A stretch of 64,000 bases of DNA from IMG/VR virus record IMGVR_UViG_3300028591_000072, positions 224,001 to 288,000 of that record, one strand, 5' to 3'. The number at the start of each line of letters is the position of its first letter. Position 1 is the stretch's first letter. The notes under the pieces are model-generated. The model searched no databases, was not told the origin of the DNA, and was given only the letters and a program-made list of their open reading frames with translations. Positions 4,021 to 52,236 of the stretch are shown here, one piece after another. Source of the DNA: a virus (Duplodnaviria; Caudoviricetes). A program made the translations under genes and the position numbers.

Positions 4021-4040
4021 AAACAACAATAAAGTAAACC

Positions 4041-4241
4041 ATGCCTACAATTAAAAGATACGGTTATGAACTAAAAGATATTGTACGTAAAAGGTATCCC
4101 TTAGCAAAAGTCTATCGCAAGGGATACCTTGTATGGCAAAAAGGTGGTGGTGGCGGAGATGTCATTGCTTCTTGCTTTGGCAATGGTTATTGGATAGACG
4201 AACTTCCATGGATTGATACTGATGCGTGGAGAGATAATTAA
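4041..4241 (+). CDS. Small tail-module protein
   Basis: 66 aa ending SCFGNGYWIDELPWIDTDAWRD, directly upstream of the giant gene. Confidence 0.6.
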   Translation: MPTIKRYGYELKDIVRKRYPLAKVYRKGYLVWQKGGGGGDVIASCFGNGYWIDELPWIDTDAWRDN

Positions 4242-4260
4242 AATCAAAAAAAATTATATA

Positions 4261-12483: not shown

Positions 12484-12532
12484 AATATTTGAAAAAAAAT
12501 AACTATTTATTATTATAAAAAAAAACTATAAT

Positions 12533-14038
12533 ATGGCAAGGAAAAATCAAAAATTAATAAATTATCATGGTAGTGGTAATACGCCTGATAATTTGCTATC
12601 ACAGATAGATTATGGTGAAATTGCTGTTAAGCATTCTACTGGTAATACTGCCCAGTTAATTATTAAGACTTCAGACGAAACAAGTGCTATTTTTGTTGAA
12701 AGTGCTGCTGTTGTTAGTATGATTGATTCAAGCATTTCTAGCGTTGCTGGAAATGTTGTTGAAATCGCAAAAAGTTTGTCGGCAGTAAGTTCAACGACTG
12801 TTGCGACAGAGGCTGGCTTAGAAGAACTTAAAGGCTATTATAGTGCGTTTACATCAGATGTTACTACTAACTTATCAGGCTCTGTGTCAGCACTTAGTGC
12901 TTCTGTCGTTAATAATTATTGGACTTCAGCGACAACGCAAGGAAAACTTGATGCAATAACTAGTCAAACACAGACTTTAACAACTAATTTACAAAACTTA
13001 TCAGGTGCTGTTTCAGCATTTAGTGCTACAGTTGTTGCTGATTACACGACTCATGCTGAAGCAAGCGGCATGCGTGATACTGCAATAACGAGTGCACAAA
13101 GTTACACTGATACTATTAGTGGATATATTGTAACTGATTTGCATGAGCACTATTGGACTTCAGCCACAACGCAAGAGAAACTTAATGCAATAACTAGTAA
13201 TACTGAGTCTTTAACGACTAATTTACAAAACTTATCAGGCGCTGTTTCAGCATTTAGTGCTAGTGTTGTTTCAATGAGCGCTGATGTTAAGACTTATATA
13301 GATGATAAACTTTCTGTTGTCTATAAATTCAAAGGAAGCGTTGATAATTATGCTGATTTGGCTAATATATCACAGCCTGAGAATGGAGATGTTTATAATG
13401 TTGTAAACGCAAATGGCACAATTGGTCAGCCTGGATATACGCCAGCTGGAACTAATTATGCATGGAATGAAACAGGAAGCACGTGGGATGCTCTTGGAGG
13501 CACTATTGACCTTAGTAGTTATGTGACACAAGACGAGTTAGATGGAGTTACTGGTAATGTTGAAACAATAACACAAGATTTAGGTAATTTATATACTTAT
13601 TTTAGTGGATTTAGTGGCTCTATCGTTTCCGGCTATACGACTCATGCTGAGGCAAGTGGAATGCGTGACACTGCAATAACGAGTGCGCAAAGTTATACTA
13701 ATACTGTTAGCGGTGATATTTCTAATTATTTGTATAATAATTATTGGAATTCAGCGACAACACAAGAGAACCTTAATGCAATAAATAGTCAAACAGAGAC
13801 TTTAACATCTAATTTACAAAACTTATCGGGTGCTGTTTCTGCATTTAGTGCTAACGTTGTTACTGATATAGTTCCTAAGGTTAATTCAGCTTTACAGGGC
13901 TTTGGGTTCACTGGTGATGGAGTAACTCAAGGAACCGGAAATCAAACTTTACAAAGTGGTGCAAAGGCTGATTATACAACTGGCGGTACGGCAACACTTG
14001 ACTTAACTGAATTGATTATTGATTGTGGAGATTGGTAA
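12533..14038 (+). CDS. Fibre-like virion protein with internal repeats
   Basis: N-terminal YGEIAV motif; 3x YWxSATTQxxLxAI..LQNLSGAVSAFSA and 2x YTTHAEASGMRDTAITSAQSYT; ends IDCGDW. Confidence 0.65.
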   Translation: MARKNQKLINYHGSGNTPDNLLSQIDYGEIAVKHSTGNTAQLIIKTSDETSAIFVESAAVVSMIDSSISSVAGNVVEIAKSLSAVSSTTVATEAGLEELKGYYSAFTSDVTTNLSGSVSALSASVVNNYWTSATTQGKLDAITSQTQTLTTNLQNLSGAVSAFSATVVADYTTHAEASGMRDTAITSAQSYTDTISGYIVTDLHEHYWTSATTQEKLNAITSNTESLTTNLQNLSGAVSAFSASVVSMSADVKTYIDDKLSVVYKFKGSVDNYADLANISQPENGDVYNVVNANGTIGQPGYTPAGTNYAWNETGSTWDALGGTIDLSSYVTQDELDGVTGNVETITQDLGNLYTYFSGFSGSIVSGYTTHAEASGMRDTAITSAQSYTNTVSGDISNYLYNNYWNSATTQENLNAINSQTETLTSNLQNLSGAVSAFSANVVTDIVPKVNSALQGFGFTGDGVTQGTGNQTLQSGAKADYTTGGTATLDLTELIIDCGDW

Positions 14039-38582: not shown

Positions 38583-38666
38583 GGGGTTGTAACCGGTAAT
38601 TGGTAGCCGAAAGGTCTGTAAAACCTTTCCCTTTTGGGACTGGTGGTTCGAGTCCACCCAACCCCA
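38583..38666 (+). tRNA. tRNA-Tyr(GTA)
   Basis: AAGGT-CTGTAAA-ACCTT, long variable arm. Confidence 0.92.
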
Positions 38667-38747
38667 CGAATGTTCAGGTAGCGCCTGACTGAGTGCAGTT
38701 ATACATCACGGGGAATCTGCACGAGAAAAAAACAAAAGGTCCGTCAA

Positions 38748-38876: not shown

Positions 38877-39033
38877 GGTGCTCTGGCAGATATGGTATAT
38901 GCACTGGACTGAATACAGAGTAAACTGTAAATCAAACTCTATAGTAATTCAGTTGGTAGAAACGTGAGTCGGTGGTTCGAGTCCGCCCTATAGAGCAAAT
39001 CCAGCTAAAGTGGTTCGAGTCCACTGGGCACCA
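38877..39033 (+). tRNA. tRNA-Phe(GAA) with 84-nt anticodon-loop intron (~38914-38997) containing a nested tRNA-like domain
   Basis: Removing the insert gives CTGGA-CTGAAAA-TCCAG; acceptor GGTGCTC/GGGCACC. Confidence 0.8.
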
Positions 39034-39124
39034 CAACTAAAATAACTAAATTGGTACAGATTAAAAAATAAAATTAAACGACAATGATAAAACGAAAGTA
39101 CATAAAACGAAAACATTTAAGTAG

Positions 39125-39368: not shown

Positions 39369-39429
39369 CAAAAATCTGGCACGGTTTTTGATAATGTGCA
39401 ATGGTTCTTTGAAAAAATGAAAAAAAATT

Positions 39430-39947
39430 CATTGTGCATAGGCGGGAAACCCCTATGTAGAATCTCCTAAATTCGGTGGAAATCCTTTGGTGTGCTGGTT
39501 AAACTCCAGCCTTGTAGAAATACAAGAAGAGATTTGTCTGACTAGAAAGCACTAACCAATAATGTGTAAGGACTATACCGAGCGAAAATAAGATGTAAGG
39601 GTTGAATAAACAGGTCGGCACTTTAATATGTAGAACAGAAAGAGTGAATTACATCCACAGAAACTTACTATAAACTTATAATCGTGTAGACTGAAATGGG
39701 AGATACCTAAGTTGATTTTAGCCTCATAGGAGTAATATTCGAGTAGGGAGTATAAACAGGCACTATGTCTGTCTCACTGAAAGAAGGCTATCTTGCAAGA
39801 TTTCAATATGGTAATGTCAGTTAAGACTACAACAAGCATTTAGCTCCTTGGTTCGACTCCAAGGGATGCCTGTCACGTGTTGGAAAAGGTGTCATAAGTG
39901 GGTTCCACTTGTTTGGCTATGGTAACATAGTGTGGTAAATATCAATG
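39430..39947 (+). ncRNA. Free-standing group I ribozyme-like RNA, copy 1
   Basis: P2 hairpin, P3 tctcc/ggaga, P4 ttcggt/accgag, P5 tcctt/aagga, P7 gactg/cagtt, ctatggtaacatag hairpin; no host gene visible. Confidence 0.7.
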
Positions 39948-39959
39948 TAATTTATATAT

Positions 39960-40034
39960 GGCCCCGTAGCTCAATTGGATAGTAGCGACAGCCTTCTAAG
40001 CTGTAGGTTCTGGGTTCGACTCCCAGCGGGGTCA
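39960..40034 (+). tRNA. tRNA-Arg(TCT)
   Basis: ACAGC-CTTCTAA-GCTGT. Confidence 0.92.
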
Positions 40035-40072
40035 CAAATTTAGTTCTTTGAAAAAATTGAAAAATACAAATT

Positions 40073-40673
40073 CATTGTGCATAGGCGGGAAACCCCTATG
40101 TAGAATCTCCTAAATTCGGTGGAAATCCTTTACCTAGATATGAAAAGAAGTAGGAAAATTCATCCTAAGTTTCATTAATTTGAAATAGGTTCCGCAACAC
40201 TAACAAATAATGTGTAAGGACTATACCGAGCGAAAATGAGAATAGAATGAAAAGCAAGTACAAGCAGAAGCAATTGCCTCCTTGTAGACTTCTTTATTTC
40301 TTTATATGATACTTATTGGTGGCAATTCGTAAGTATCATTTATTCTTATAAACGTGTAGAGACTGAACGGGAGATGCCTAAGTTGGAATTATATTAAGAC
40401 GATGATAGCCCAGGATTCAAAAGAGCACCCATAATGAATGGGAGGTGGTTGGTATGAAATCCAACAATTCGTTGATAATATTACTTGCAAGAATTTCAAT
40501 ATGGTAATGTCAGTCAAGACCACAATAAATAAACATACATGTCTAATGGTGAAGACAAGCGACTTGAAAAGAAAGGCTGATGTCCGAGAGGAGACGCAAA
40601 TGTGGCATTGATGTGGGTTCGATTCCCACTATGTTTGTTCGGCTATGGTAACATAGTGTGGTAAATATCAATG
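40073..40673 (+). ncRNA. Free-standing group I ribozyme-like RNA, copy 2, with two tRNA-like inserts
   Basis: Same core as copy 1 (P7 gagactg/cagtc); tRNA-like cassettes at ~40398-40474 and ~40531-40637. Confidence 0.7.
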
Positions 40674-40686
40674 TAATTTATATATT

Positions 40687-40859
40687 ACTCCTATAGTTCA
40701 AGGGATAGAACGGAAGTTTCCTATACAAGAGTAAACTTGTTAAAATCAAAACTTCATGTTGGTGAAGATGGTCACACGTGCGTTAAAATGTCTACACGAT
40801 GGTTCGAGTCCATCACATGAAGCAAACTTCTAATCTTGGTTCGAGTCCAAGTAGGAGTA
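40687..40859 (+). tRNA. tRNA-Arg(CCT) with 101-nt anticodon-loop intron (~40723-40823) containing a nested tRNA-like domain
   Basis: Removal gives GAAGT-TTCCTAA-ACTTC; acceptor ACTCCTA/TAGGAGT. Confidence 0.82.
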
Positions 40860-40913
40860 CAAAAAAAAATAACCAGATGAAAATTCTGGCACGGTCTTTG
40901 ATAATATTGCAAT

Positions 40914-41400: not shown

Positions 41401-41522
41401 TGGGATGTGGTGTAATGGTAGCACACGTAGCACTTTATGATTTCAGACACGGAATTTTACAGCAATTATTTTAGCGATGAATTTGGGTTTCCGTGGTTTT
41501 GGTTCGATTCCAGACATCCCGA
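41401..41522 (+). tRNA. tRNA-Pro(TGG) carrying a 51-nt ACAGCAA-module insertion (41428-41478)
   Basis: Removal gives CG|GAA-TTTGGGT-TTCCG. Confidence 0.7.
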
Positions 41523-41532
41523 CTAATATGAT

Positions 41533-41616
41533 GGCCAAGTGTCGTAATTGGTAACCGAGCTGGTCTCAAAAACCAGTGGGCGAAAGCCCGTGTGGGTTCG
41601 AGTCCCACCTTGGCTA
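41533..41616 (+). tRNA. tRNA-Leu(CAA)
   Basis: CTGGT-CTCAAAA-ACCAG, variable arm GGGC-GAAA-GCCC. Confidence 0.92.
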
Positions 41617-41658
41617 CAATGGTTAAAAACCAAATAATAATTAAATTAAAAATAAATT

Positions 41659-42273
41659 ATGAAGAGAATTTTATCAGTATTAATGATTGCTTTGATGGCA
41701 ATTTCTTTGACATCTTGCGATTGGTTTAAAAAGAAAAACGACAATAAGAAAGAGATTGTTGTTGAAAATTTGGTTTCGGAAGATACCAAGTACATGGTAG
41801 AAAATTATGACACATGTTTTGTTTATTACGAGACACAAATTGTTTTAAATAACTATCTTGATGAGGAATGTGATGGTTCATTTGAAAGTGTAACAAATAT
41901 ATTCCAAGGATATACACTTGTTGATAGCACGTTCCAACCTACAGTAGTTATTTTTGAACACATTGGAGATTCGTCAAGCATTGAAAAGGTTAATGATGCA
42001 TGGATGGAAGATATGGTAATGAAAAAAAATGACATTGCCATTTCATATAAGGATGCATTCAAATGTATGAACGAAGTAAATTATCCAAAACCACACGCAA
42101 AGGCTTGTACTTTGAGAAAAGAAGTAGGACCTTGCCAAGCAAACGCCCAATATATTTTTGGTAACGTTGAATCACAATTGTATGTTGATGCAATAACAGG
42201 CGATGTTTCACCAAATAGTCCAACATTCAGTTGTCTTGGCGCTGAAGAAAATGTTGAAGAAGTGGTCGAATAA
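41659..42273 (+). CDS. Lipoprotein
   Basis: Signal peptide II ending LTS-C. Confidence 0.8.
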   Translation: MKRILSVLMIALMAISLTSCDWFKKKNDNKKEIVVENLVSEDTKYMVENYDTCFVYYETQIVLNNYLDEECDGSFESVTNIFQGYTLVDSTFQPTVVIFEHIGDSSSIEKVNDAWMEDMVMKKNDIAISYKDAFKCMNEVNYPKPHAKACTLRKEVGPCQANAQYIFGNVESQLYVDAITGDVSPNSPTFSCLGAEENVEEVVE

Positions 42274-42292
42274 TGATTAAGAAATAAAAGTA

Positions 42293-42359
42293 GAAAACCT
42301 AACAGCAATTTTTAGTAAAAAATCAGAACTTTCACTTCCGACAATAACTAATGGTTTTC
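42293..42359 (+). ncRNA. ACAGCAA-module RNA carrying a Glu(TTC)-like anticodon arm
   Basis: GAAAACC/GGTTTTC stem, TAACAGCAA, TCAGAA-CTTTCAC-TTCCGA. Confidence 0.65.
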
Positions 42360-42427
42360 GTTTTTAATAAAAGGTGACACTTTTAGGATTTTTTGCACAC
42401 CGATAGACAAGGTAAAAATCCAAGTAA

Positions 42428-42580
42428 GCCTCTTTAGTATAAAGGTTATTACACTTGACTTGTACATCAGAAGGAACTGATTAAAACCAAGCTATATTTG
42501 AAAGACAAAGCATATGCTGAAACAGCGATAGTTTCATATAGCTCAATCATGAGATGGCAGTTCGATTCTGCCAAGAGGCT
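42428..42580 (+). tRNA. tRNA-Thr(TGT) with 81-nt anticodon-loop intron (~42464-42544)
   Basis: Removal gives CTTGA-CTTGTAA-TCATG; acceptor GCCTCTT/AAGAGGC. Confidence 0.8.
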
Positions 42581-42704
42581 CTAAAATCTTCGAGGGATTG
42601 ATGCTTGGTTTAGTGTTTTGGTTACCTGACGAGGTAAACTGAGACAATAATAAGGAGTAAGAAGGAAGCATGCACTTGGCTTACTGTGTAGAAGATTTTT
42701 TAAT

Positions 42705-42776
42705 GCGTTGTTAGTACAACGGTCAGTATATGGGCTTCCCAAGCCTAAGATGTCAGTTCGATTCTGATACAGCGCT
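42705..42776 (+). tRNA. tRNA-Gly(CCC)
   Basis: TGGGC-TTCCCAA-GCCTA, U73. Confidence 0.9.
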
Positions 42777-42968
42777 CAAATACGGTGCGTAGTTTACGAT
42801 ATGGGTTTGACACGAACTGGAAGCATGGGCATCAGAGCCGTGCACGAAAGAGAATCAGGAGTGAAGCCTGACTAAACAACTATATCAAAGAATGGTACGA
42901 AGACCTGGTGACAAGAACTCACCGTTACTTGTTAAAAAAGGACCTCATCAGTAGTATCATTTAGATTT

Positions 42969-43050
42969 ACCTCAGTACCCGAACTGGTATAGGGACTACA
43001 CTTAGGATGTAGCGGCTGAGCCACTGTGGGTTCGACTCCCACCTGGGGTA
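42969..43050 (+). tRNA. tRNA-Leu(TAG)
   Basis: CTACA-CTTAGGA-TGTAG. Confidence 0.9.
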
Positions 43051-43205
43051 CAAAAATAAATGGGTGAAGCTTTGTTATTGAAGCCATGGATTTTACCGTG
43101 AGAAGACGAATGTCCGCCCAAAAACACAGAGGAACTTGCCAAATTGATACTGTACAGCTTTTGGTAATAAGGATAAGTAGACTCAGAAGGTTATATTCCT
43201 TATAT

Positions 43206-43277
43206 GCGGTGTTAGTACAACGGTTAGTATATCAGCTTGCCATGCTGAAGATGTCAGTTCGATTCTGATACACCGCT
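43206..43277 (+). tRNA. tRNA-Gly(GCC)
   Basis: TCAGC-TTGCCAT-GCTGA. Confidence 0.92.
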
Positions 43278-43279
43278 CA

Positions 43280-43366
43280 AGGAAACATGCAGCAATCTTT
43301 CTCAGGTTGAAAATTTTGACTGTAAATCAAATAAGGTGGTTCGAGTCCACAAAAATATTGTTTCCT
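43280..43366 (+). ncRNA. ACAGCAA-module variant (GCAGCAA) carrying a Tyr(GTA) anticodon arm and T-arm
   Basis: AGGAAACA/TGTTTCCT stem; TTTGA-CTGTAAA-TCAAA; GTGG-TTCGAGT-CCAC. Confidence 0.7.
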
Positions 43367-43374
43367 GTTTTTAT

Positions 43375-43448
43375 GGGAGAGTAGCGTAGCTGGTTAGCGC
43401 AACGGACTGTTAATCCGTGGGTCGTGGGTTCGATTCCCACCTCTCCCG
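43375..43448 (+). tRNA. tRNA-Asn(GTT)
   Basis: ACGGA-CTGTTAA-TCCGT. Confidence 0.92.
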
Positions 43449-43453
43449 CTTGA

Positions 43454-43585
43454 AGAAATCTAACAGCAATTAATAAATTCGTTTGACTGTAAATCAAAAG
43501 GTTGTGGGTTCGAGTCCCGCTGTCGCCAAAGATTATATTAGTTGAAGGCGACATAGCTCAATGGTAGAGAAAGAAAATGATTTCT
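43454..43585 (+). ncRNA. Circularly permuted tRNA-Tyr(GTA) closed by the ACAGCAA module
   Basis: 3' half (43480-43528) precedes 5' half (43547-43569); terminal stem AGAAATC/GATTTCT. Confidence 0.8.
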
Positions 43586-43782
43586 GAGAAAAACAATGAC
43601 GCTTAACCGTCAGAACATGTTTCTAAATTCATTAAAGATTTAGCGCACTTGTAGAGCGATAGGACTACACCTAAACCGAGGTGAGTGGTGAAGTACCGAG
43701 GAAGCTTTATTTGAAAGGTTACGAGCTCTTAAACAGATGATGGCATAGTTAAGAAGGTGCCATAAACATTTCTTTTTAATAT

Positions 43783-43855
43783 GGGGGTATGGTTGAATGG
43801 CTACAATGCGGGCTTGTCACGCCCTGTGGTGCGGGTTCGAATCCCGTTATCCCCG
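43783..43855 (+). tRNA. tRNA-Asp(GTC)
   Basis: GGGC-TTGTCAC-GCCC, G73. Confidence 0.9.
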
Positions 43856-43934
43856 CAATATTGGGGTTTCGAAAAAAAACGATAAAATTGCGTATAATTT
43901 GGCTTTCGAAACTATTTATAATAAAACAAAGTTT

Positions 43935-44654
43935 ATGTGTGATGGTTTAAATTTTAAATGTAAACAGTGTGGCGTAACATTTGAAAAAACAAAGTCTGAG
44001 TTATCAAAAAACCATAATGTTGTTCCTGTCTTTTGTTCTAAAGACTGTCAACAAAAATGGTATAAAGAAAATTCGTATATAACTGTAGAATGCAAATGTT
44101 GTGGAAAAGAATTTACAATAAAAAAAGGTGAATACAATAAAAATAAAAACAAAAACTTTTTTTGTTCACATTCTTGTGCTGCTAAATTTAATAATAAAAC
44201 TAGAACAATAAAAAAAACTGTTTTTGAAAAAGATAACAAAATTAAAATATCTAAAAAGAAAGAAGATATATATGGTGTATGTCCAATTTGCGGAAATAAA
44301 AAATTTAAGAAATCAATATTGTGCAAAAAATGTAGAAACGAGCAAAAAAGAAATAACATAAAAAAGAGAACACTTGGATATTTTATTGAAGGAAAAAAAT
44401 ATTTGGGTTCAAAATGTAATGAAATAAGAAAAGACGCAAAGAGAACAATTGAAGAAAGCTGTGTCGAAAAAACTTGTGCATATTGTCATAACCACGAGTT
44501 TGATGGCATATTAGAAGTACATCATATAAAAGGAATTTTGGAGTTTGATAAAAGCACGACAATAGAAGAAATAAATGATATTAATAACCTTGTTTGGTTA
44601 TGTCCAAATCATCACAGGATGCTTGAACTTGGATTAATTAAACTTGAAAAATAG
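43935..44654 (+). CDS. HNH endonuclease with Cys-rich N-terminal repeats
   Basis: CxxC..FCSxxC repeats; EVHHIK..NLVWLCPNHH; start moved to Met47 because the listed start overlaps tRNA-Asp. Confidence 0.85.
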   Translation: MCDGLNFKCKQCGVTFEKTKSELSKNHNVVPVFCSKDCQQKWYKENSYITVECKCCGKEFTIKKGEYNKNKNKNFFCSHSCAAKFNNKTRTIKKTVFEKDNKIKISKKKEDIYGVCPICGNKKFKKSILCKKCRNEQKRNNIKKRTLGYFIEGKKYLGSKCNEIRKDAKRTIEESCVEKTCAYCHNHEFDGILEVHHIKGILEFDKSTTIEEINDINNLVWLCPNHHRMLELGLIKLEK

Positions 44655-44660
44655 ATTAAA

Positions 44661-44789
44661 AGGAATTTAACAGCAAGTTACAATAGGTAAACACATTTGT
44701 AAACAAAACAAAGATTGTTGGTTCGAGTCCAACTGCGGCTTTAGGGGAACCGATGGCTGCATAGTGAAATGGAAGATAAATAGATTCCT
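44661..44789 (+). ncRNA. Circularly permuted Cys-like tRNA (ACA loop) closed by the ACAGCAA module
   Basis: AGGAATT/GATTCCT stem; TGCGGCT-T precedes GGCTGCA; break in the D-loop. Confidence 0.7.
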
Positions 44790-44919
44790 GTAATCTAAAA
44801 AATATAAGGAAAGAAGGACACACGTACCTTAAACAAGTACGAAAAGTTAGTGCTGGCCACATAAAGTCGCCAAGCGTCTCAGGGTGGATGCACGATAGTG
44901 AAATGTAAATTTCTTAGAT

Positions 44920-44992
44920 GGGGAGTTCATTTAGCGGTTTAGGATGCAGGTTCGACAGACCTGTCACTATGGTTCGATTCCATAACACCCCA
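44920..44992 (+). tRNA. Atypical tRNA, GAC anticodon (Val?) with C33
   Basis: CAGGT-TCGACAG-ACCTG; one A-A mismatch in the acceptor. Confidence 0.6.
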
Positions 44993-44997
44993 CAATC

Positions 44998-45225
44998 GGT
45001 TTGTTGTTGATAATCAAAGGAAAGTTGAGTTGGACATGGGTTCGAGTCCCATATGGTCCACTAAGTAATTGATTTTCAAGTAAATACGGGCCATCTTGGT
45101 TTTGACAGCTAATGAGTACAATGGAAGTAGACATCCGAGATGCCATAAAATAACTGGCAACGAAAATTATGCTTATGCTTATGCAGCAGCCTAAGGCAGT
45201 GCATTGAGCAGGTTGGCAGCGAACC
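44998..45225 (+). ncRNA. ssrA: Permuted (two-piece) tmRNA
   Basis: T-arm and ATGGTCC-A (to 45060) precede GGGCCAT-CTTGGTTTTGAC (45088); G3-U70 pair; tag GNENYAYAYAAA* at 45156-45194 after ATAACT. Confidence 0.9.
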
Positions 45226-45239
45226 AAATCGCTGCACAT

Positions 45240-45315
45240 GGTCGGTTCGTCTAGTCTGGCCTAGGACATCAGGTTTTCATCCTGGGAATCATGGGTTCAA
45301 ATCCCATACCGACTA
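45240..45315 (+). tRNA. tRNA-Glu(TTC)
   Basis: TCAGG-TTTTCAT-CCTGG. Confidence 0.9.
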
Positions 45316-46042: not shown

Positions 46043-46167
46043 GCCAAGGTAGCTCAGTGGTTTAGAGCAATGGGAGTGTATAAATGATTTTTGATTAAAA
46101 ATCTAACAGCAACTTCCAAATACCTATGTAAACCCATTGGTCGGAGGTTCGAATCCTTCTCTTGGCT
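46043..46167 (+). tRNA. tRNA (GTA or TGT depending on junction) with a 51-nt ACAGCAA-module insertion (~46075-46125)
   Basis: GCCAAGG/TCTTGGC acceptor, ATGGG/CCCAT anticodon stem; insert contains GATTTTT-GATT-AAAAATC-TAACAGCAA. Confidence 0.7.
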
Positions 46168-46175
46168 CAAAAAAT

Positions 46176-46257: not shown

Positions 46258-46331
46258 GGAAAACATACAGCAAGTTTTATCAAATTCAAGTTACAATCTT
46301 TTAAATTGTGGGACTAAATTTTTTGTTTTCC
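46258..46331 (+). ncRNA. ACAGCAA-module RNA carrying a Lys(TTT) anticodon arm
   Basis: GGAAAACA/TGTTTTCC stem, TACAGCAA, ACAAT-CTTTTAA-ATTGT. Confidence 0.7.
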
Positions 46332-47138: not shown

Positions 47139-47196
47139 CGCTAATTTCGACTTTACTTTTTCACCCTTTTTACTATTTATGTATAAAAGTGGTTTT

Positions 47197-47871
47197 ATGA
47201 AAGAAAAAGAAATAGATAAAATAAGCGTGGAACAAATAAACGAAGCTTTTGAAAAGTGTGGTAATCTTAAAGAAGTTGTTTTTTATTTTGGAAAAAAATA
47301 CAATGGCGGAAGTCAACGATTTGTATATGCTTTAATGGAAAAAGCCGGAATAAAGTATTCTGATTTTTTCAAAAAAGGGAAAGAGTATTATAAAAAAAAT
47401 GTAAAGTATTGTGAAAATTGTGGAAAAGAATTGCCATATGAAAAAAGGAATAATAAATTTTGTTCTTCTTCTTGTGCAGCATCTAAAAACAATCTTGGGG
47501 TAAGAAGAAACTTTAATCCAAATAAACCAATAATACAAACAAAAGAAGAAAAAGAAAGACTGAAGTTGGAAAGATGGAAGAATGGAGAAAATTTTTTAGT
47601 TGGCTCTTGTGAAATACCAGTTTTTATAAGAAGATATTTGTTCAGTAAAAACGAATGTAAATGTGAGCGATGTGGGTGGGGTGAAATAAATGAGGACACA
47701 GGAAAAATTCCGTTGCAAATACATCACATAGATGGTGATTGCACAAACAACAAAGAAGAAAATTTACAACTACTTTGTCCAAATTGTCATAGTTTGACTA
47801 ACACATTTGGTTCGTTGAACAAAAAGTCAAAAAGATTCCATAGAAAAAAGAAAACTTTAAAAGATATATAG
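47197..47871 (+). CDS. HNH endonuclease
   Basis: CERCG..LQIHHIDGD..NN...NLQLLCPNCH. Confidence 0.9.
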   Translation: MKEKEIDKISVEQINEAFEKCGNLKEVVFYFGKKYNGGSQRFVYALMEKAGIKYSDFFKKGKEYYKKNVKYCENCGKELPYEKRNNKFCSSSCAASKNNLGVRRNFNPNKPIIQTKEEKERLKLERWKNGENFLVGSCEIPVFIRRYLFSKNECKCERCGWGEINEDTGKIPLQIHHIDGDCTNNKEENLQLLCPNCHSLTNTFGSLNKKSKRFHRKKKTLKDI

Positions 47872-48457: not shown

Positions 48458-49393
48458 ATGTCAAATAATAAATTAAAGCAGCGTTTTGTAAAAGATTACA
48501 ATCTTCCAATCAATGTGTTTGATGAAGAATTGTTTAATTATTATATGAATTTGTATCATTTTTTTCCTAAGGAAAAGTGGGAAAATTTGAAAAAAGACAT
48601 ACAAGACAAATATCGTGGGAATGTTGAAGTATGGCTTGAGTATTGCGCTGAAGTTAGGGATAAGGCCATTAATGGCGTTATGGAAACTCAAGAATATAAA
48701 GAGTTCAACAACAGTGATTTATCAAAATATAAATTAACGAAAAATATTGGAGAGCATAGTTATTATACCAATGAAACAAATGGGTGCAGGTTTGTGTCAA
48801 TTGATTTGAAGAAGGCAAATTTCCAAGCCCTTAAATACGTTGGTGTTATCGGCGATAAGACATATGGTGATTTTATTGAGCGTTTTGATGGAAGCGATTA
48901 CATTAAAGACAGCAAATATTTGAGACAGGTGATTTTTGGTAAGATGAATCCTGGCAGAATTATTACCATAGAAAAATATATTATGGAAAAAATAATGTCA
49001 ATTGCCGATGAGGTTTTACCTCCTGAGTTTAAATTATATTCTCAAAACAGCGATGAACTTGTATATAAACAGACAGGAAGTTTTTATGGTGACATAAGAA
49101 TTATATGCGCTGTTATTGAAAAAATGGTTCTTGATAATTTTGGTGTTGAGGTACGTGCTGAATATGTTGAGGTTACAAAACTTCCAATTGTTAATTGCAA
49201 TGGTAATAATGTTGATGCTTTTGTCCGTAAGAACATTAATACGGGAGAAGAGGTTCTGAAAAAGGCATCAACAACATTTTATCCGCAGATTTACAAATTA
49301 TGGAAAGGAATGGAAATTGAAGATAGAGACCTTGTTTTCTATTTCGAGGACCAATTATGTAGATTTAATAATCCTTTAAAATTGATTGAATAA
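48458..49393 (+). CDS. Hypothetical protein with polymerase-palm-like motifs
   Basis: FVSIDLKKANF and NSDELVY. Confidence 0.5.
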   Translation: MSNNKLKQRFVKDYNLPINVFDEELFNYYMNLYHFFPKEKWENLKKDIQDKYRGNVEVWLEYCAEVRDKAINGVMETQEYKEFNNSDLSKYKLTKNIGEHSYYTNETNGCRFVSIDLKKANFQALKYVGVIGDKTYGDFIERFDGSDYIKDSKYLRQVIFGKMNPGRIITIEKYIMEKIMSIADEVLPPEFKLYSQNSDELVYKQTGSFYGDIRIICAVIEKMVLDNFGVEVRAEYVEVTKLPIVNCNGNNVDAFVRKNINTGEEVLKKASTTFYPQIYKLWKGMEIEDRDLVFYFEDQLCRFNNPLKLIE

Positions 49394-50124
49394 TGAAAAT
49401 AATTGCGAGTAGTGACTTTCATGGGCGTATGCCTGAAATAAAAGAGCCTTTTGACTTATTTTTGATATGTGGGGATATTTGTCCTGTGGAATGCCACGGA
49501 AAAAAATTCCAAGAAGATTGGCTTCAAAATGATTTTATTGAATGGGTTAATGGATTACCGTTTAAGACACCTTGGAGCAAAGTTGTTATGACTTGGGGAA
49601 ATCATGATTTTTATGGCGAAAAATGTTCTGAAGATGATATGTTTATGCTTGAAAGACTAACAAATTTCAGGCTTAGAATATTGAGGCATAATTCATATGA
49701 ATTTGAGTTTCCTGTTAGTGATGGCATTGATTCTTTGAAAATTTTCGGAACGCCTTATTGCGGACAATTCGGAAGATGGGCATTTATGGATGATGATGAG
49801 ACACTTCGTCACCTTTTTACTGAAATACCAGATGATACTGATATTTTAATTAGTCACGATAGTCCAAACGTTTATGGGCTTGGAGATATTACACAAGGAT
49901 ATTGGAAACAATCAGGAACAGGAAACAGGGTTCTTTATGACCATGTATTGAGAGTGCGCCCTAAATTGTTTGTGTGTGGACATTTTCATAGTGGAAACCA
50001 TCAATTGCAAAACATTGATGGAATATATATGGCAAATGTTTCATATATTAACGAAGATTATGAGCCATTTTGGGATGTTTTAACTATTTATTATGATGAA
50101 GAAGCAAGAAAAATAATTGAATAA
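49393..50124 (+). CDS. Calcineurin-like metallophosphoesterase
   Basis: SDFHG, CGDI, GNHD, SHDSP, GHFH. Confidence 0.9.
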   Translation: MKIIASSDFHGRMPEIKEPFDLFLICGDICPVECHGKKFQEDWLQNDFIEWVNGLPFKTPWSKVVMTWGNHDFYGEKCSEDDMFMLERLTNFRLRILRHNSYEFEFPVSDGIDSLKIFGTPYCGQFGRWAFMDDDETLRHLFTEIPDDTDILISHDSPNVYGLGDITQGYWKQSGTGNRVLYDHVLRVRPKLFVCGHFHSGNHQLQNIDGIYMANVSYINEDYEPFWDVLTIYYDEEARKIIE

Positions 50125-50134
50125 AAAGAATAAT

Positions 50135-51262
50135 ATGGGAAAAGATTTTTTACTTGAAGTCAAGTCATTAATTAATAGAATTGAAAATACAGAAACAATA
50201 AACGAAACAAAAGTTGGATTCAGGTTTATAGACAAAGCTGAAAATCTTCCTGATTTACTTGCCGGTCTAAAACCAGGCAAAATGTTCACTTTTGGATACG
50301 TTAATGTGGCCCAAATTGTTGTACCAACAGTAAAAAGAAGAAATCCTGAAACAAATAGGATGAAATCATATGAAGATTACGCCCAACTTGGCAAAAATTT
50401 GGGAGAAGAAGGCGAAGTGGTAAATGTAATTAAATTATCAATGTATAATTTCCCATGGCAGGAACAAAACCGTGTAAAACAAAGATATTCAGATTGGAGG
50501 ACTAAAAGGGATGAACTTGCAGGAAGATTTGGCGTTACATATGGAAAAGCAAGATATGGAACTGAAATGAATAATTTCGGTGGTGGTATAGAAAGTTACA
50601 AAGGAAATAATCCAGAACTTTCAGACCACACATATTTGAATTTCAATCTTCATAACATACGCCCATTTAATACTGCCTATTATTTGCTTTTTGATGATGG
50701 TACAATTAAGCAAGTTGATGAAAAGAAATTGGAATTTAAAGCAAAAAATTCTTATGATGAACTTCAAAAATTAAGAGATGCCGGAGCAACAGAAGCGGAT
50801 TTGGTATGCCTTATTGGTATGAATTATCATAAATTTGAAAATTCAAAGATTTTGTTCGTATCAGGAACTGAAATGGATGGTGTCCCAACACTTTTAATTA
50901 ATGACAATTTATCTGATAAAATAAGCGGAATAGCTGGTGTAAATCGTGATGCAATTGTTCAAATTGCCAAAGATAGATATTCAAAAGTGCTTAATGTTCA
51001 AGAGGGAAAAGACATTATTTTCAATGAATTAATAAATGAAAACGAAGAATTTATTCCTCAAGGATATAAAGCAGATAGTAATTTTGGGGGAAAAGAAATT
51101 CAAATAAGCAATAGTGGCGATGCTGCAAGAATTAGAACAAATTATAGCGGACAGCCAGATGAGCCTTCTGAATGGATGGAAATACAATTCGATGATGAAG
51201 GCGTTGCATATGTGGATACGCCAAACGGTATTGAGAAGTTATCTGATTATATGAAATATTAA
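50135..51262 (+). CDS. Putative internal head protein
   Basis: LLE, INE, VQE, LINE motifs delimiting domains. Confidence 0.45.
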   Translation: MGKDFLLEVKSLINRIENTETINETKVGFRFIDKAENLPDLLAGLKPGKMFTFGYVNVAQIVVPTVKRRNPETNRMKSYEDYAQLGKNLGEEGEVVNVIKLSMYNFPWQEQNRVKQRYSDWRTKRDELAGRFGVTYGKARYGTEMNNFGGGIESYKGNNPELSDHTYLNFNLHNIRPFNTAYYLLFDDGTIKQVDEKKLEFKAKNSYDELQKLRDAGATEADLVCLIGMNYHKFENSKILFVSGTEMDGVPTLLINDNLSDKISGIAGVNRDAIVQIAKDRYSKVLNVQEGKDIIFNELINENEEFIPQGYKADSNFGGKEIQISNSGDAARIRTNYSGQPDEPSEWMEIQFDDEGVAYVDTPNGIEKLSDYMKY

Positions 51263-51363
51263 AGTGAATTATATGTAAGTTATCATAAAGTCAGTCAGAA
51301 ATGGCTGACTTTTTTTTGGTTTTTATTTTTATTTTTGTATATTAATTAAAAATTTAAGTTTTT

Positions 51364-52236
51364 ATGATTAGTAAAGAAGATAGATTAAAGTTGTTTGTCA
51401 ATGAACTTGACGATATTACCGAAGAAAATTTAAGGAAATTTGCTGAAGAGCTTATTTCCAATGCAGATGAATACTTTTTCACTGTTGCTGCTTCAACAAG
51501 CGGTAAATACCATCCACAGTTTGACCTTGGCGAAGGTGGGCTTGTAAGGCACACAAGGTGTGTTGTGTTTTTTGCTGAGTGCGAATCAATTTCAAGAATG
51601 TTTACTGACCACGAAAAGAATCTTATGATTGTTGCGGCCATAGCACATGACATAAAGAAATTGGGTGATGGAAAGGGAAAACATACGGTTGATGACCATC
51701 CAAGATTTGCGGCTGAATACATTAACGACACAAATAAGAGAACTGAGTTGTTAAGCGCAGATGATGAGAATATTTTGGCTAATATGGTATTATCACATAT
51801 GGGTAAATGGGGGCATGAAAAGATTGCTGATTTACCATTGCCAAAGACAGAATTGGAAAAGGCATTACAAGCGGCAGACTATATTGCAAGCAGAAAAGAA
51901 CTTCTTGGGTTTGATTTTAGACCGACAGAAAAAGTTGATATTAAAATTGACCCCGTTAAGCCTTGTGATTTTGTCGTTGGCTTCGGAAAACATTCCGGAA
52001 AAACAATAAAGCAAATATATGAAGAAGGTAAAAAAGGTGACACATATCTTCATTGGATGATGAAGCAGGAAGAGTTCAATAACCAAGAAGCACGATTAAA
52101 CGGAATGCTTTATCTTTATGAACTTGGAGAGTTGCCAAAGCAATATGAAAAGGAAATAAGCAATGAGCCACAAAAAGAAGAAACAACTATTGTTGAACAA
52201 AATCAATCAGCGCCTGAAGATGATTTACCATTTTAA
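51364..52236 (+). CDS. HD-domain phosphohydrolase with C-terminal FGKH motif domain
   Basis: ASTSGKYHP, GGLVRHT, AHD, SHMGKW, ADY; FGKHSGKTI..YLHW. Confidence 0.85.
   Translation: MISKEDRLKLFVNELDDITEENLRKFAEELISNADEYFFTVAASTSGKYHPQFDLGEGGLVRHTRCVVFFAECESISRMFTDHEKNLMIVAAIAHDIKKLGDGKGKHTVDDHPRFAAEYINDTNKRTELLSADDENILANMVLSHMGKWGHEKIADLPLPKTELEKALQAADYIASRKELLGFDFRPTEKVDIKIDPVKPCDFVVGFGKHSGKTIKQIYEEGKKGDTYLHWMMKQEEFNNQEARLNGMLYLYELGELPKQYEKEISNEPQKEETTIVEQNQSAPEDDLPF

What the first reader, a model, noticed from the sequence alone, without database searches (positions are those of the whole stretch)
43454..43585. Precisely circularly permuted tRNA-Tyr gene in a phage
Seen, in order: AGAAATC-TAACAGCAA-linker-[CG TTTGA CTGTAAA TCAAA AGGTT GTGGG TTCGAGT CCCGC TGTCGCC A]-18-nt spacer-[GGCGACA TA GCTC AATGGTA GAG]-linker-GATTTCT. 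Joining 43569 to 43480 restores the D-stem (GCTC/GAG|C) and G26 and gives a clean cloverleaf with a short variable loop. Established: permuted tRNA genes are known from some algae and archaea and mature through a circular intermediate. Inference: this is a bacterial-phage permuted tRNA or a YrlA-like mimic. A linear tRNA finder would likely miss it.
Basis: partly seen in the sequence, partly recalled or inferred. Interest (0 to 1): 0.9.

Follow-up and report, generated by a model that had tools for sequence, protein, structure and literature searches.

The report
Permuted tRNA-Tyr mimic with handle
This 132-base stretch of a giant sheep-gut phage does encode a complete tyrosine tRNA written in rotated order, but it belongs to a large, apparently undescribed family of phage small RNAs that carry a conserved "handle" and usually travel with a Ro60-like protein, so it is most likely a tRNA look-alike (a Y-RNA-like RNA) and not a working tRNA gene.

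Summary
At 43454-43585 (+) the order is 7-nt clamp strand, UAACAGCAA, 3' tRNA half (C25-A73), 18-nt spacer, 5' half (G1-G24), clamp strand. ARAGORN calls the rejoined 72 nt a clean tRNA-Tyr(GUA), with every class-I tertiary pair in place.

It is not a one-off. The handle followed by a T arm occurs in more than 230 IMG/VR phage loci. A covariance model built from 33 of them, without this lineage, scores the element 82.3 bits, the best hit in the 302-kb genome. In the family the acceptor stem is usually closed by a 2-8-nt loop, and only about 30% keep an anticodon arm. That is YrlA (Y-RNA) architecture, not a tRNA gene.

Handle-bearing phage records carry DUF2828 in 32 of 50 cases against 0 of 50 controls. 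I modelled that protein, and its best structural matches are all Ro60.

Orthologues keep the tRNA body while the flanks diverge. One breaks the 1-72 pair.

Caveats: this phage (82% complete) and its nearest relatives have no detectable DUF2828, TROVE, RtcB or Rnl gene. Expression and processing could not be tested, because only assembled contigs were available. RNase P opening, as in M. smegmatis YrlA and the neighbouring permuted tmRNA, stays open.

This scan has noted the same family before on other genomes.

The parts
43454..43460 (+). Handle clamp, 5' strand (AGAAATC)
   Evidence: Pairs with 43579-43585. In the orthologue L107 it becomes AGGAAT(T)C/GATTCCT, an A-U to G-C compensatory change. 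The family sample has 30 different, always complementary clamp sequences.
43461..43469 (+). Conserved single-stranded handle motif UAACAGCAA
   Evidence: Directly follows the clamp strand. It was the anchor of the family searches. In this genome it occurs with a clamp in at least 8 elements, all inside the two tRNA arrays.
43470..43479 (+). 5' linker (UUAAUAAAUU)
   Evidence: Variable between orthologues. Family linkers on this side are 5-10 nt.
43480..43528 (+). tRNA 3' half: C25, G26, anticodon arm (43482-43498, anticodon GTA 43489-43491), variable loop AGGTT (43499-43503), T arm (43504-43520), acceptor 3' strand (43521-43527), A73 (43528)
   Evidence: ARAGORN on the rejoined sequence. Rfam tRNA partial hit of 36.5 bits. 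The anticodon arm and variable loop are identical in all three orthologue types, and the T stem shows two compensatory pairs in L107.
43529..43546 (+). 18-nt A/U-rich spacer that closes the acceptor stem as a loop
   Evidence: Fastest-changing part: 4 substitutions in L174, and shorter and different in L107. Family loops are mostly 2-8 nt.
43547..43569 (+). tRNA 5' half: acceptor 5' strand GGCGACA, U8 A9, D stem GCTC, D loop AATGGTA, GAG (22-24)
   Evidence: Only a 1-nt D-loop indel separates the orthologues. The YrlA model aligns the D arm here.
43570..43578 (+). 3' linker AAAGAAAAU, ending in the family's A-rich ...AAAU element
   Evidence: In 39 family members, position -3 before the clamp 3' strand is A in 36 of 39, and AAAU is the commonest ending.
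43579..43585 (+). Handle clamp, 3' strand (GATTTCT)
43280..43366 (+). Sister element: clamp AGGAAACA/TGTTTCCT plus UGCAGCAA, enclosing the same Tyr anticodon arm and a T arm, with no acceptor stem or D arm
   Evidence: Weak R1 hit of 20.8 bits.
44661..44790 (+). Second permuted, handle-tagged tRNA-like element of the same family
   Evidence: R1 score 49.6 bits. T arm plus closed 7-bp acceptor hairpin. Orthologues in L007, L107, L174 and L169.
46043..46167 (+). Normal-order tRNA-Tyr(GUA)-like gene whose anticodon loop holds a closed clamp hairpin (GATTTTT/AAAAATC) followed by UAACAGCAA
   Evidence: Rfam tRNA 50.5 bits over 125 nt. ARAGORN with introns calls tRNA-Tyr i(33,51). Sequence.
38583..38667 (+). 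The phage's ordinary bacterial-type tRNA-Tyr (85 nt, long variable arm, different anticodon stem)
   Evidence: It shows that the permuted copy does not fill a gap in the tRNA set.
45002..45194 (+). Permuted (two-piece) tmRNA gene, with the same local layout of T arm, acceptor 3' strand, 28-nt spacer and acceptor 5' strand
   Evidence: Rfam tmRNA_permuted 65 bits. ARAGORN tmRNA* 44971-45285. Closed acceptor hairpin with G3-U70.

Best explanation
The stretch encodes a small non-coding RNA of about 132 nt. It most likely comes off the polycistronic tRNA-array transcript, because tRNA-Asn ends 4 nt before it. Its two ends pair into a 7-bp clamp that carries the conserved UAACAGCAA / ...AAAU internal loop (the 'handle'). 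The clamp encloses a complete tRNA-Tyr-shaped body, rotated so that the acceptor stem is closed by an 18-nt loop and the chain enters and leaves between D-stem positions 24 and 25.

It is a member of a large phage family of handle-tagged, circularly permuted tRNA mimics that are built like the bacterial Y RNA YrlA.

Inferred mechanism: the handle is the docking site for a Ro60-fold ring protein of the DUF2828+DUF7788 type, supplied here by the unassembled part of the phage, by the host, or not at all. The tRNA body is the working end and engages proteins that recognise tRNA. In this member the presented part is specifically a tRNA-Tyr anticodon arm. It may act as bait or decoy for enzymes or defence nucleases that act on tRNA-Tyr.

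Because it has a 7-bp acceptor stem, A73 and a long loop, RNase P may open the loop and CCA may be added, as happens to M. smegmatis YrlA. That would give a two-piece particle.

Shown: the anatomy, family membership, conservation, co-occurrence of the family with DUF2828, and the Ro60 fold of DUF2828. Inferred: binding, processing and the decoy role.
For: 1. Exact permuted cloverleaf with all tertiary pairs.
Parsing gives 103 distinct elements of 112-140 nt with the same order: clamp, motif, T arm, closed acceptor stem, D arm, A-rich linker, clamp.
3. RNAalifold finds the T arm, a 7-bp closed acceptor stem and the D arm, with both-sided changes in 13 of 16 pairs. There are 30 different complementary clamps.
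4. Model R1, built without this lineage, scores the element 82.3 bits. It is the best hit in the window and in the whole genome.
5. The Rfam YrlA model aligns its T arm, acceptor hairpin and D arm to the element at 26.8 bits, E 4e-4 over a 169-nt search. YrlA has the same layout, and its 7-bp-acceptor form is cut by RNase P and CCA-tailed in vivo (PMC4201824).
6. Purifying selection: against L174, tRNA-Asn is 75/75 identical and the element 127/134, with every change in the spacer, D loop or linker, while the next 197 nt are only 58% identical. L107 shows compensatory changes in the clamp and T stem and an unchanged anticodon arm.
7. Mimic rather than tRNA gene: 71 of 103 acceptor loops are 2-8 nt, including GAAA, GCAA and UUCG. 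Only 31 of 103 members keep a canonical anticodon arm, against 2.4 expected in shuffles. L107 has G1xA72 and U73. The short variable loop is unlike bacterial tRNA-Tyr, and an ordinary tRNA-Tyr is present in the array.
8. Partner: DUF2828 is in 32 of 50 handle-bearing records (15 of 16 that are at least 90% complete) against 0 of 50 control phage records that hold a tRNA-Tyr gene (0 of 8). Fisher p = 2.5e-13 and 1.2e-5. A handle sits about 10 nt upstream of a DUF2828 start codon in L177. The AlphaFold model has pLDDT 91.5, and its top 13 PDB matches are all Ro60/TROVE structures (E 3e-9 to 4e-6, TM 0.37-0.63, 11 of 13 at 0.5 or more). The vWA MIDAS motif DxSxS is invariant.
Against: No DUF2828 or TROVE gene is detectable in this 302-kb assembly (and 74 with --max). 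None is detectable in the three nearest relatives' records of 208, 148 and 106 kb. All are incomplete (82, 56, 41 and 29%), so for this lineage the protein partner is an assumption.

Binding of the handle to DUF2828 rests on co-occurrence and one adjacency that I examined, and many of the records are related to each other.

This member is unusually tRNA-complete: full anticodon arm, all tertiary pairs, 7-bp acceptor stem, A73, and an 18-nt loop like the 28-nt one of the neighbouring two-piece tmRNA gene. That is what a real, processable tRNA would look like.

Transcription, RNA ends and any modification are not shown. The decoy role is speculation; the only outside support is that defence systems which destroy tRNA-Tyr are known (PMC11555353).
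Confidence: 0.65

Rival explanations
1. It is a genuine permuted tRNA-Tyr gene whose product decodes. RNase P cuts 5' of G1 (between 43546 and 43547). The 3' side is trimmed to A73 and CCA is added. The two pieces stay together through the acceptor stem, the D stem with its tertiary contacts, and the clamp. The result is a two-piece tRNA, analogous to two-piece tmRNA, that TyrRS charges.
For: Perfect cloverleaf with every tertiary pair, G1-C72, A73 and a GUA anticodon. The anticodon arm is invariant in the orthologues. The same genome has a permuted tmRNA with the same acceptor layout, which must be opened in this way to work. M. smegmatis YrlA is cut by RNase P and CCA-tailed (PMC4201824).
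Against: The family as a whole closes the acceptor stem with 2-8-nt loops and mostly lacks anticodon arms. Orthologue L107 has G1xA72, G4-U69 and U73. Bacterial TyrRS reads a class II tRNA with a long variable arm (established knowledge), and this body has a 5-nt loop. A clamp arm projecting at position 24/25 would sit in the tRNA core. The phage already has a normal tRNA-Tyr.
Confidence: 0.12
2. It is a permuted tRNA gene matured as in Cyanidioschyzon or Thermofilum. The clamp plus UAACAGCAA acts as a processing signal, a functional analogue of the bulge-helix-bulge motif. The flanks are cut off, the ends are ligated into a circle, and RNase P with 3' trimming opens the circle into a linear tRNA-Tyr. 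The same signal would then mark the handle-containing inserts in the anticodon loops at 46043-46167 and 41401-41522 as introns.
For: The handle occurs both as the flanks of permuted bodies and as a closed hairpin inside normal-order tRNAs, with similar spacing of 9-13 nt from the tRNA junctions. The junction is nucleotide-exact.
Against: There is no bulge-helix-bulge motif at the junction. The genome shows no splicing endonuclease, RtcB, Rnl1 or Rnl2. About 70% of family members could not yield a tRNA, because they have no anticodon arm. The handle-bearing tRNA-like genes here duplicate canonical tRNAs (Tyr, Pro) instead of filling gaps. The family tracks a Ro60-fold protein, not a nuclease or ligase.
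Confidence: 0.06
3. It is a decaying by-product of recombination in a repetitive tRNA array, or the cargo of a mobile cassette, with no function of its own.
For: The array is full of HNH homing endonuclease genes and of fragmentary copies, such as 43280-43366. The same clamp sequence AGAAATC/GATTTCT encloses a different body in L105, which suggests module shuffling.
Against: Conservation is 127/134 next to a 58% identical flank. Compensatory changes are seen in the clamp and T stem. The element scores 82.3 bits against an independent family model. Identical copies occur in two further metagenome contigs.
Confidence: 0.05

Closest known systems
YrlA, the tRNA-like bacterial and mycobacteriophage Y RNA bound by Rsr/Ro60 (Rfam RF02553; Chen et al. 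2014, PMC4201824)
   Same: The 5' and 3' ends pair into a stem that carries the protein-binding site. Inside lie a T arm, an acceptor stem closed by a loop, and a D arm, in that rotated order. tRNA tertiary pairs are preserved. It is found in phages. The partner has a Ro60 fold. The 7-bp-acceptor form is opened by RNase P and CCA-tailed.
   Different: The handle is clamp plus UAACAGCAA/...AAAU, not GNCGAAN0-1G. It scores only 26.8 bits against a gathering score of 69. The family's partner is DUF2828+DUF7788 and is not detected by the TROVE Pfam model. The elements lie inside phage tRNA arrays, often in many copies, rather than next to rsr. This member keeps a full anticodon arm with a Tyr anticodon. 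No partner gene is seen in this genome.
Circularly permuted tRNA genes of Cyanidioschyzon merolae and other algae, and of the archaeon Thermofilum pendens
   Same: The 3' half lies upstream of the 5' half with a short spacer. The flanks pair. Rejoining gives an exact cloverleaf.
   Different: Those genes use a bulge-helix-bulge motif, the splicing endonuclease and a ligase, and pass through a circular intermediate to a decoding tRNA. Here there is no such motif, no such enzymes were found, and the family context is a mimic with a closed acceptor stem.
Two-piece (circularly permuted) tmRNA, Rfam RF04321, present 1.5 kb downstream in this window
   Same: A permuted gene in which a T arm and acceptor 3' strand are followed by a spacer and the acceptor 5' strand. 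It matures by opening of that loop.
   Different: tmRNA carries a tag reading frame, pseudoknots and the G3-U70 alanine identity pair. The element here has none of these; the tmRNA_permuted model gives 11.6 bits.
'Enigmatic' inserts in tRNA genes of Lak megaphages (Devoto et al. 2019, PMC6784885; taken from earlier scan notes, not read here)
   Same: Giant gut or rumen phages whose tRNA genes are interrupted by small structured, tRNA-like inserts. This genome has such inserts, some with the same handle.
   Different: Those are insertions inside normal-order tRNAs. This element stands free and is permuted.

Membership tests
   AGAAATC/GATTTCT, with a compensatory change in L107.
   43461-43469 and 43574-43578.
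   82.3 bits, E about 2e-13, over the full model 1-123.
   No hit with the Pfam model, phmmer or a 54-sequence HMM run with --max. The genome is 82% complete. The relatives also lack it.
YrlA (Rfam RF02553) | Score at or above the Rfam gathering threshold (69 bits) | tested here: not met
   26.8 bits. Only the T arm, acceptor hairpin and D arm core aligns.
YrlA (Rfam RF02553) | GNCGAAN0-1G Rsr-binding motif near the 5' end (PMC4201824) | tested here: not met
   No match in 43440-43610.
YrlA (Rfam RF02553) | Encoded within about 4 kb of a TROVE (Ro60) gene on the same strand | tested here: not met
   No TROVE match in the genome.
YrlA (Rfam RF02553) | tRNA-like domain with T arm, closed acceptor stem and D arm, and tRNA tertiary pairs including the 15-48 Levitt pair | tested here: met
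   (A15-U48).
Circularly permuted tRNA genes (algal and archaeal type) | 3' half upstream of 5' half; the rejoined sequence is a canonical tRNA | tested here: met
   ARAGORN calls tRNA-Tyr(gta), 72 nt.
Circularly permuted tRNA genes (algal and archaeal type) | Bulge-helix-bulge motif formed by leader and trailer at the junction | tested here: not met
   The flanks form a plain 7-bp helix 10 and 9 nt away from the junction. No pair of 3-nt bulges around a 4-bp helix is present.
Circularly permuted tRNA genes (algal and archaeal type) | Splicing endonuclease and RNA ligase available | tested here: inconclusive
   The phage has no tRNA_int_endo, RtcB, Rnl1 or Rnl2 (the Rnl1 model matched none of the control genomes either). 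The host is unknown; bacteria commonly have RtcB but no such endonuclease.
Circularly permuted tRNA genes (algal and archaeal type) | Circular intermediate or junction-spanning RNA | not testable with these tools
   Only assembled contigs of the RNA runs were available.
Bacterial tRNA-Tyr | Class II body with long variable arm; A73; G34 U35 | tested here: not met
   A73 and GUA are present, but the variable loop is 5 nt. The phage's ordinary tRNA-Tyr has the long arm.

The most novel reading that the evidence does not exclude
The element is opened by RNase P and CCA-tailed like the neighbouring two-piece tmRNA. That would give a two-piece, handle-bearing tRNA-Tyr that can be charged or that presents a genuine tRNA-Tyr anticodon arm and acceptor end. 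This would be the first split or permuted tRNA shown to be processed in a bacterial system. It would serve either as a nuclease-proof spare tRNA-Tyr or as a tethered decoy against defence nucleases that destroy tRNA-Tyr.
Probability: 0.15. Interest if true: 0.9.

Novelty: new variant of a known kind. Interest (0 to 1): 0.66.

Why it matters
The element shows that complete, nucleotide-exact circular permutation of a tRNA exists in a bacterial virus, where tRNA finders and Rfam do not report it.

It ties that oddity to a very widespread RNA-protein pairing that I could not find described. The RNA side is more than 230 phage loci from two capped searches. The protein side, DUF2828, has over 6,000 clusters at 50% identity. 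No paper in the searchable library gives DUF2828 a function or mentions the motif.

If the handle is the docking site of a Ro60-fold protein, phages carry a modular Y-RNA-like system whose working end can be exchanged for different tRNA parts.

This member is the most tRNA-complete one I saw. That makes it the natural test substrate for several questions: does RNase P open it, is CCA added, can it be charged, and does it protect against tRNA-Tyr-directed defence?

It also matters for annotation. Such elements inflate or confuse the counts of tRNAs and pseudo-tRNAs in jumbo phages.

Tried and rejected
- Distant BLAST of 43200-43900 against INPHARED phages found only ordinary tRNA matches and no relative. 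A tail-fibre ORF was a useless probe for relatives.
- An exact-acceptor pattern in IMG/VR found nothing.
- RNA evidence: the two sheep-gut metatranscriptome runs that hold the region are kept only as contigs. One RNA-run contig is collinear with the DNA over 41417-43604 at depth about 16, against about 12,000 for the nearby group I-like RNAs. No back-joint 43569>43480 was among the listed joints, and 85 joints were not shown. This can show neither transcription nor absence of a junction.
- A listed joint 43438>43802 with 38 foreign letters looks like another phage in which tRNA-Asn and tRNA-Asp are neighbours. At 90% likeness I did not count it.
- The ESM Atlas look-alikes of DUF2828 (TROVE clusters at 0.91-0.93) were used only as a lead. 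phmmer against PDB sequences found nothing.
- The genome-contig scan returned mostly TAACAGCAA lying just 5' of ordinary tRNA genes. Given about 2 million tRNA T loops in that library and the orthology between species, this may be chance, so I did not use it.
- Pfam and PHROGs on the ORFs around the array gave HNH endonucleases, a metallophosphoesterase, an HD protein, a NUDIX hydrolase and an AAA ATPase. No candidate RNA partner appeared.
- A search for papers on 'permuted tRNA' plus 'phage' found nothing relevant.
- Complex prediction was not used, because it cannot take RNA.
Full report
**What is in the sequence.**
The window is bases 224001-288000 of a single 302,581-bp, 32% G+C virus record from sheep gut. 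It holds a large tRNA array with 25 ARAGORN tRNAs and a permuted tmRNA.

The order is AGAAATC, TAACAGCAA, a 10-nt linker, C25-A73 of a tRNA, an 18-nt spacer, G1-G24, a 9-nt linker, and GATTTCT.

Joining 43547-43569 to 43480-43528 gives a 72-nt sequence that ARAGORN calls tRNA-Tyr(gta) with perfect stems. Every classical tertiary contact of a class I tRNA is present: U8-A14, A15-U48, G18/G19 with U55/C56, G26-A44, T54-A58, and the 9, 45 and 46 triples.

Linear tools miss it. RNAfold on the native order gives the clamp, T arm, closed acceptor hairpin and D hairpin, with z = -2.7. In the whole genome, only this element, the one at 44661-44790 and the permuted tmRNA have a T arm followed by a closed 7-bp acceptor hairpin.

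**It is one of a family in this genome.**
ACAGCAA preceded by a purine-rich strand, whose complement lies downstream, occurs in at least eight elements. All of them lie inside the two tRNA arrays. An earlier scan note (e1-5634027) pointed me to this, and I re-derived it.

The enclosed bodies differ:
- Isolated anticodon arms: 42293-42359 (Glu-like) and 46258-46331 (Lys-like).
- The Tyr anticodon arm plus a T arm: 43280-43366.
- Two whole permuted tRNA-like bodies: this element and 44661-44790.

In two normal-order tRNA-like genes the handle sits inside the anticodon region. At 46043-46167 it is a closed hairpin followed by UAACAGCAA. At 41401-41522 it is a clamp enclosing a small insert.

The tRNA identities that are mimicked (Tyr, Pro, Cys, Glu, Lys) all have ordinary genes in the same array. 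The ordinary tRNA-Tyr at 38583-38667 has the bacterial long variable arm and a different anticodon stem.

**It is one of a very large family in phages.**
The pattern TAACAGCAA-N25-55-GGTTCGAGTCC hit 113 IMG/VR loci, and the GGTTCGAATCC variant hit 120.

Parsing these gives 103 distinct elements of 112-140 nt with one architecture: clamp, UAACAGCAA, 22-33 nt, T arm, 7-nt acceptor 3' strand, loop, acceptor 5' strand, UA, D arm, A-rich linker ending in ...AAAU, clamp.

RNAalifold on 33 of them recovers the T arm, the closed 7-bp acceptor stem and the D arm. Both-sided changes occur in 13 of 16 pairs. The clamps come in 30 different, always complementary versions.

I built a covariance model (R1) from those 33, none of them from this lineage. 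It scores 43454-43586 at 82.3 bits (E about 2e-13). That is the top hit in the window and in the genome, ahead of 44661-44790 at 49.6 bits.

No Rfam 15 family reaches its threshold on these elements, in the window or in 12 loci.

**What the family says about function.**
Acceptor loops are 2-8 nt in 71 of 103 members, and many are stable GAAA, GCAA or UUCG caps. Only 31 of 103 have a canonical 5-bp, 7-nt-loop anticodon arm at the tRNA position. That is far above the 2.4 expected in shuffles, but it is a minority. Fourteen different anticodons occur on one uniform short-variable-loop scaffold, including Ser and Tyr, which in bacteria need long arms.

The conserved core is therefore the handle plus the tRNA elbow and acceptor stem, and the anticodon arm is optional. 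That is the design of YrlA, the tRNA-like Y RNA of bacteria and mycobacteriophages (PMC4201824).

The Rfam YrlA model aligns its T arm, acceptor hairpin and D arm to this element. The score is only 26.8 bits against a threshold of 69, and the outer stems do not fit. YrlA's GNCGAAN0-1G motif is absent. So the element works like YrlA in architecture but is not a member of that family.

**The protein partner of the family.**
Earlier notes of this scan (e1-5595809, e1-5658002 and others) named DUF2828 as a Ro60-like partner. I tested this myself in four ways.

1. Co-occurrence. Pfam DUF2828 is found in 32 of 50 handle-bearing IMG/VR records, and in 15 of the 16 that are at least 90% complete. It is found in 0 of 50 control phage records that were picked only for holding an ordinary tRNA-Tyr gene (0 of 8 near-complete). 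Fisher p values are 2.5e-13 and 1.2e-5. The records are not phylogenetically independent.
2. Adjacency. In L177 a handle (AGAATGT-TAACAGCAA...ACATTCT) ends about 10 nt before the DUF2828 start codon.
3. Family size and domains. The protein family is huge, with 6,259 clusters at 50% identity. It consists of DUF2828 plus DUF7788 and has an invariant DxSxS MIDAS motif.
4. Fold. An AlphaFold model from a 54-sequence alignment has pLDDT 91.5 and pTM 0.90. Its 13 best PDB matches are all Ro60/TROVE structures: Xenopus, human, Deinococcus Rsr, and Thermus phage phiLo Ro60. E-values run from 3e-9 to 4e-6 and TM-scores from 0.37 to 0.63 (11 of 13 at 0.5 or more). Lower matches cover only vWA domains.

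I found no paper that gives DUF2828 a function or mentions the motif.

**What is missing in this phage.**
Neither TROVE nor DUF2828 is detectable in the 302-kb assembly. I tried the Pfam models, phmmer with three phage DUF2828 proteins, and my own HMM with all filters off. Neither is detectable in the three closest relatives' records. All four records are incomplete (82, 56, 41 and 29%).

RtcB, Rnl1, Rnl2 and the tRNA splicing endonuclease are also not found. The Rnl1 model matched none of the control genomes either, so that result carries little weight.

The ORFs inside the array are HNH homing endonucleases. A contig with an identical copy of the element (L169) has the second permuted element only about 280 nt downstream, which leaves no room for the HNH gene at 43797-44654. 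For this lineage the partner is therefore assumed. It could be host-encoded, in the missing 18%, or absent.

**Conservation of this element.**
Two metagenome contigs carry it unchanged (L169, L172).

L174 differs only in the spacer (4 substitutions), the D loop (+A) and the 3' linker. In the same comparison tRNA-Asn is 75/75 identical, the element is 127/134, and the next 197 nt are 58% identical.

L107/L112 is more distant. It shows a compensatory A-U to G-C change in the clamp and two compensatory pairs in the T stem, with an identical anticodon arm and variable loop. Its acceptor stem is weakened (G4-U69, G1xA72) and position 73 is U. So the body and the Tyr anticodon arm are under selection, and the aminoacyl end less so.

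The 13-nt string ACTGTAAATCAAA also recurs at 43280-43366 and in the insert of the interrupted tRNA at 38877-39034. It is the common tRNA-Tyr anticodon-loop context in many phage tRNA-Tyr genes.

**How it most likely works.**
- Shown: a conserved RNA gene with a clamp-plus-motif handle and a rotated, complete tRNA-Tyr body. It is a member of a family linked to a Ro60-fold protein.
- Inferred: the RNA is cut out of the array transcript by processing of the flanking tRNAs. The handle docks a Ro60-like ring. The tRNA body recruits or distracts proteins that read tRNA, here specifically the tRNA-Tyr anticodon arm.
- Open: the loop may be opened. The 7-bp acceptor stem, A73 and 18-nt loop resemble M. 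smegmatis YrlA, which RNase P cleaves and which is CCA-tailed in vivo. They also resemble the permuted tmRNA 1.5 kb downstream, whose 28-nt loop must be opened for function.

A decoy role is plausible, because defence systems that destroy tRNA-Tyr are known and phage tRNA-Tyr counters them (PMC11555353). It is untested.

**Rivals.**
- A decoding two-piece tRNA (0.12). This is kept alive by the completeness of the body. It is weakened by the family context, the short variable loop, the L107 acceptor end and the ordinary tRNA-Tyr.
- Maturation through a circle with the handle as splice signal (0.06). This fits the fact that the handle also sits inside normal-order tRNAs at similar spacing. It lacks a bulge-helix-bulge motif and the enzymes, and most family members could never yield a tRNA.
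- A relic of recombination (0.05). Conservation and covariation argue against it.

**Verdict.**
The element is a new variant of a known kind: a tRNA-like Y RNA with a different handle and a different Ro60-fold partner family.

The family has already been noted several times by this scan on other genomes, so this finding adds a member, not a discovery. It is, however, the most tRNA-complete member I saw, and so the best substrate for deciding between mimic and split tRNA.

Noticed in passing
window 45002-45194 (Rfam); 44971-45285 (ARAGORN): Permuted (two-piece) tmRNA gene in a phage, with tag peptide GNENYAYAYAAA, a G3-U70 pair, and a 28-nt spacer closing the acceptor stem. A counterpart lies in relative L107 at 4238-4542.
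   Followed up: partly
window 38877-39034, 40687-40860, 41401-41523, 42428-42581, 46043-46168: Five tRNA-like genes that ARAGORN accepts only with 51-101-nt inserts in the anticodon loop. Two of the inserts (41401 and 46043) contain the clamp plus ACAGCAA handle. The insert at 38877 contains a small normal-order tRNA-like body preceded by ACTGTAAATCAAA.
   Followed up: partly
window 39404-40807: In two sheep-gut RNA runs, contigs over this stretch reach depths of 2,400-12,600, against about 10-40 for the rest of the array. Many alternative joints are listed. Earlier notes call these exon-less group I-like RNAs.
   Followed up: no
window 43797-44654 and 47179-47871: HNH endonuclease ORFs sit inside the tRNA array. 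In contig L169, which carries the identical permuted element, the second permuted element lies only about 280 nt downstream, leaving no room for the first ORF. That fits a homing insertion.
   Followed up: partly
L182-L301 (bacterial genome contigs): TAACAGCAA lies 0-8 nt upstream of the 5' end of ordinary tRNA genes (Asp, Lys and others) in many genomes: Flavobacteriia and Chitinophagia, where it follows TTTGCAnnCGC, and also Actinomycetota and Bacillota. It may be chance plus orthology, or a conserved tRNA leader related to the handle motif.
   Followed up: no
L169 3648-3774 and 3782-3912: A contig carrying the identical permuted tRNA-Tyr element has two further strong family members (54.9 and 68 bits) that have no equally strong counterpart in this window.
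   Followed up: no
L105 10671-10804 (-): The same clamp sequence AGAAATC/GATTTCT encloses a quite different tRNA-like body in an unrelated 176-kb phage. This is either chance or exchange of bodies between handles.
   Followed up: no
window 43586-43782: The 197-nt non-coding spacer after the element has no hit to any RNA family and is only about 58% identical in the L174 relative. Its content is unexplained.
   Followed up: no
window 48458-52236: Directly after the tRNA array lie a 311-aa ORF without family, a calcineurin-like metallophosphoesterase, a 381-aa ORF without family and an HD-domain protein. This could be an RNA-end-healing set, but no ligase was recognised.
   Followed up: partly
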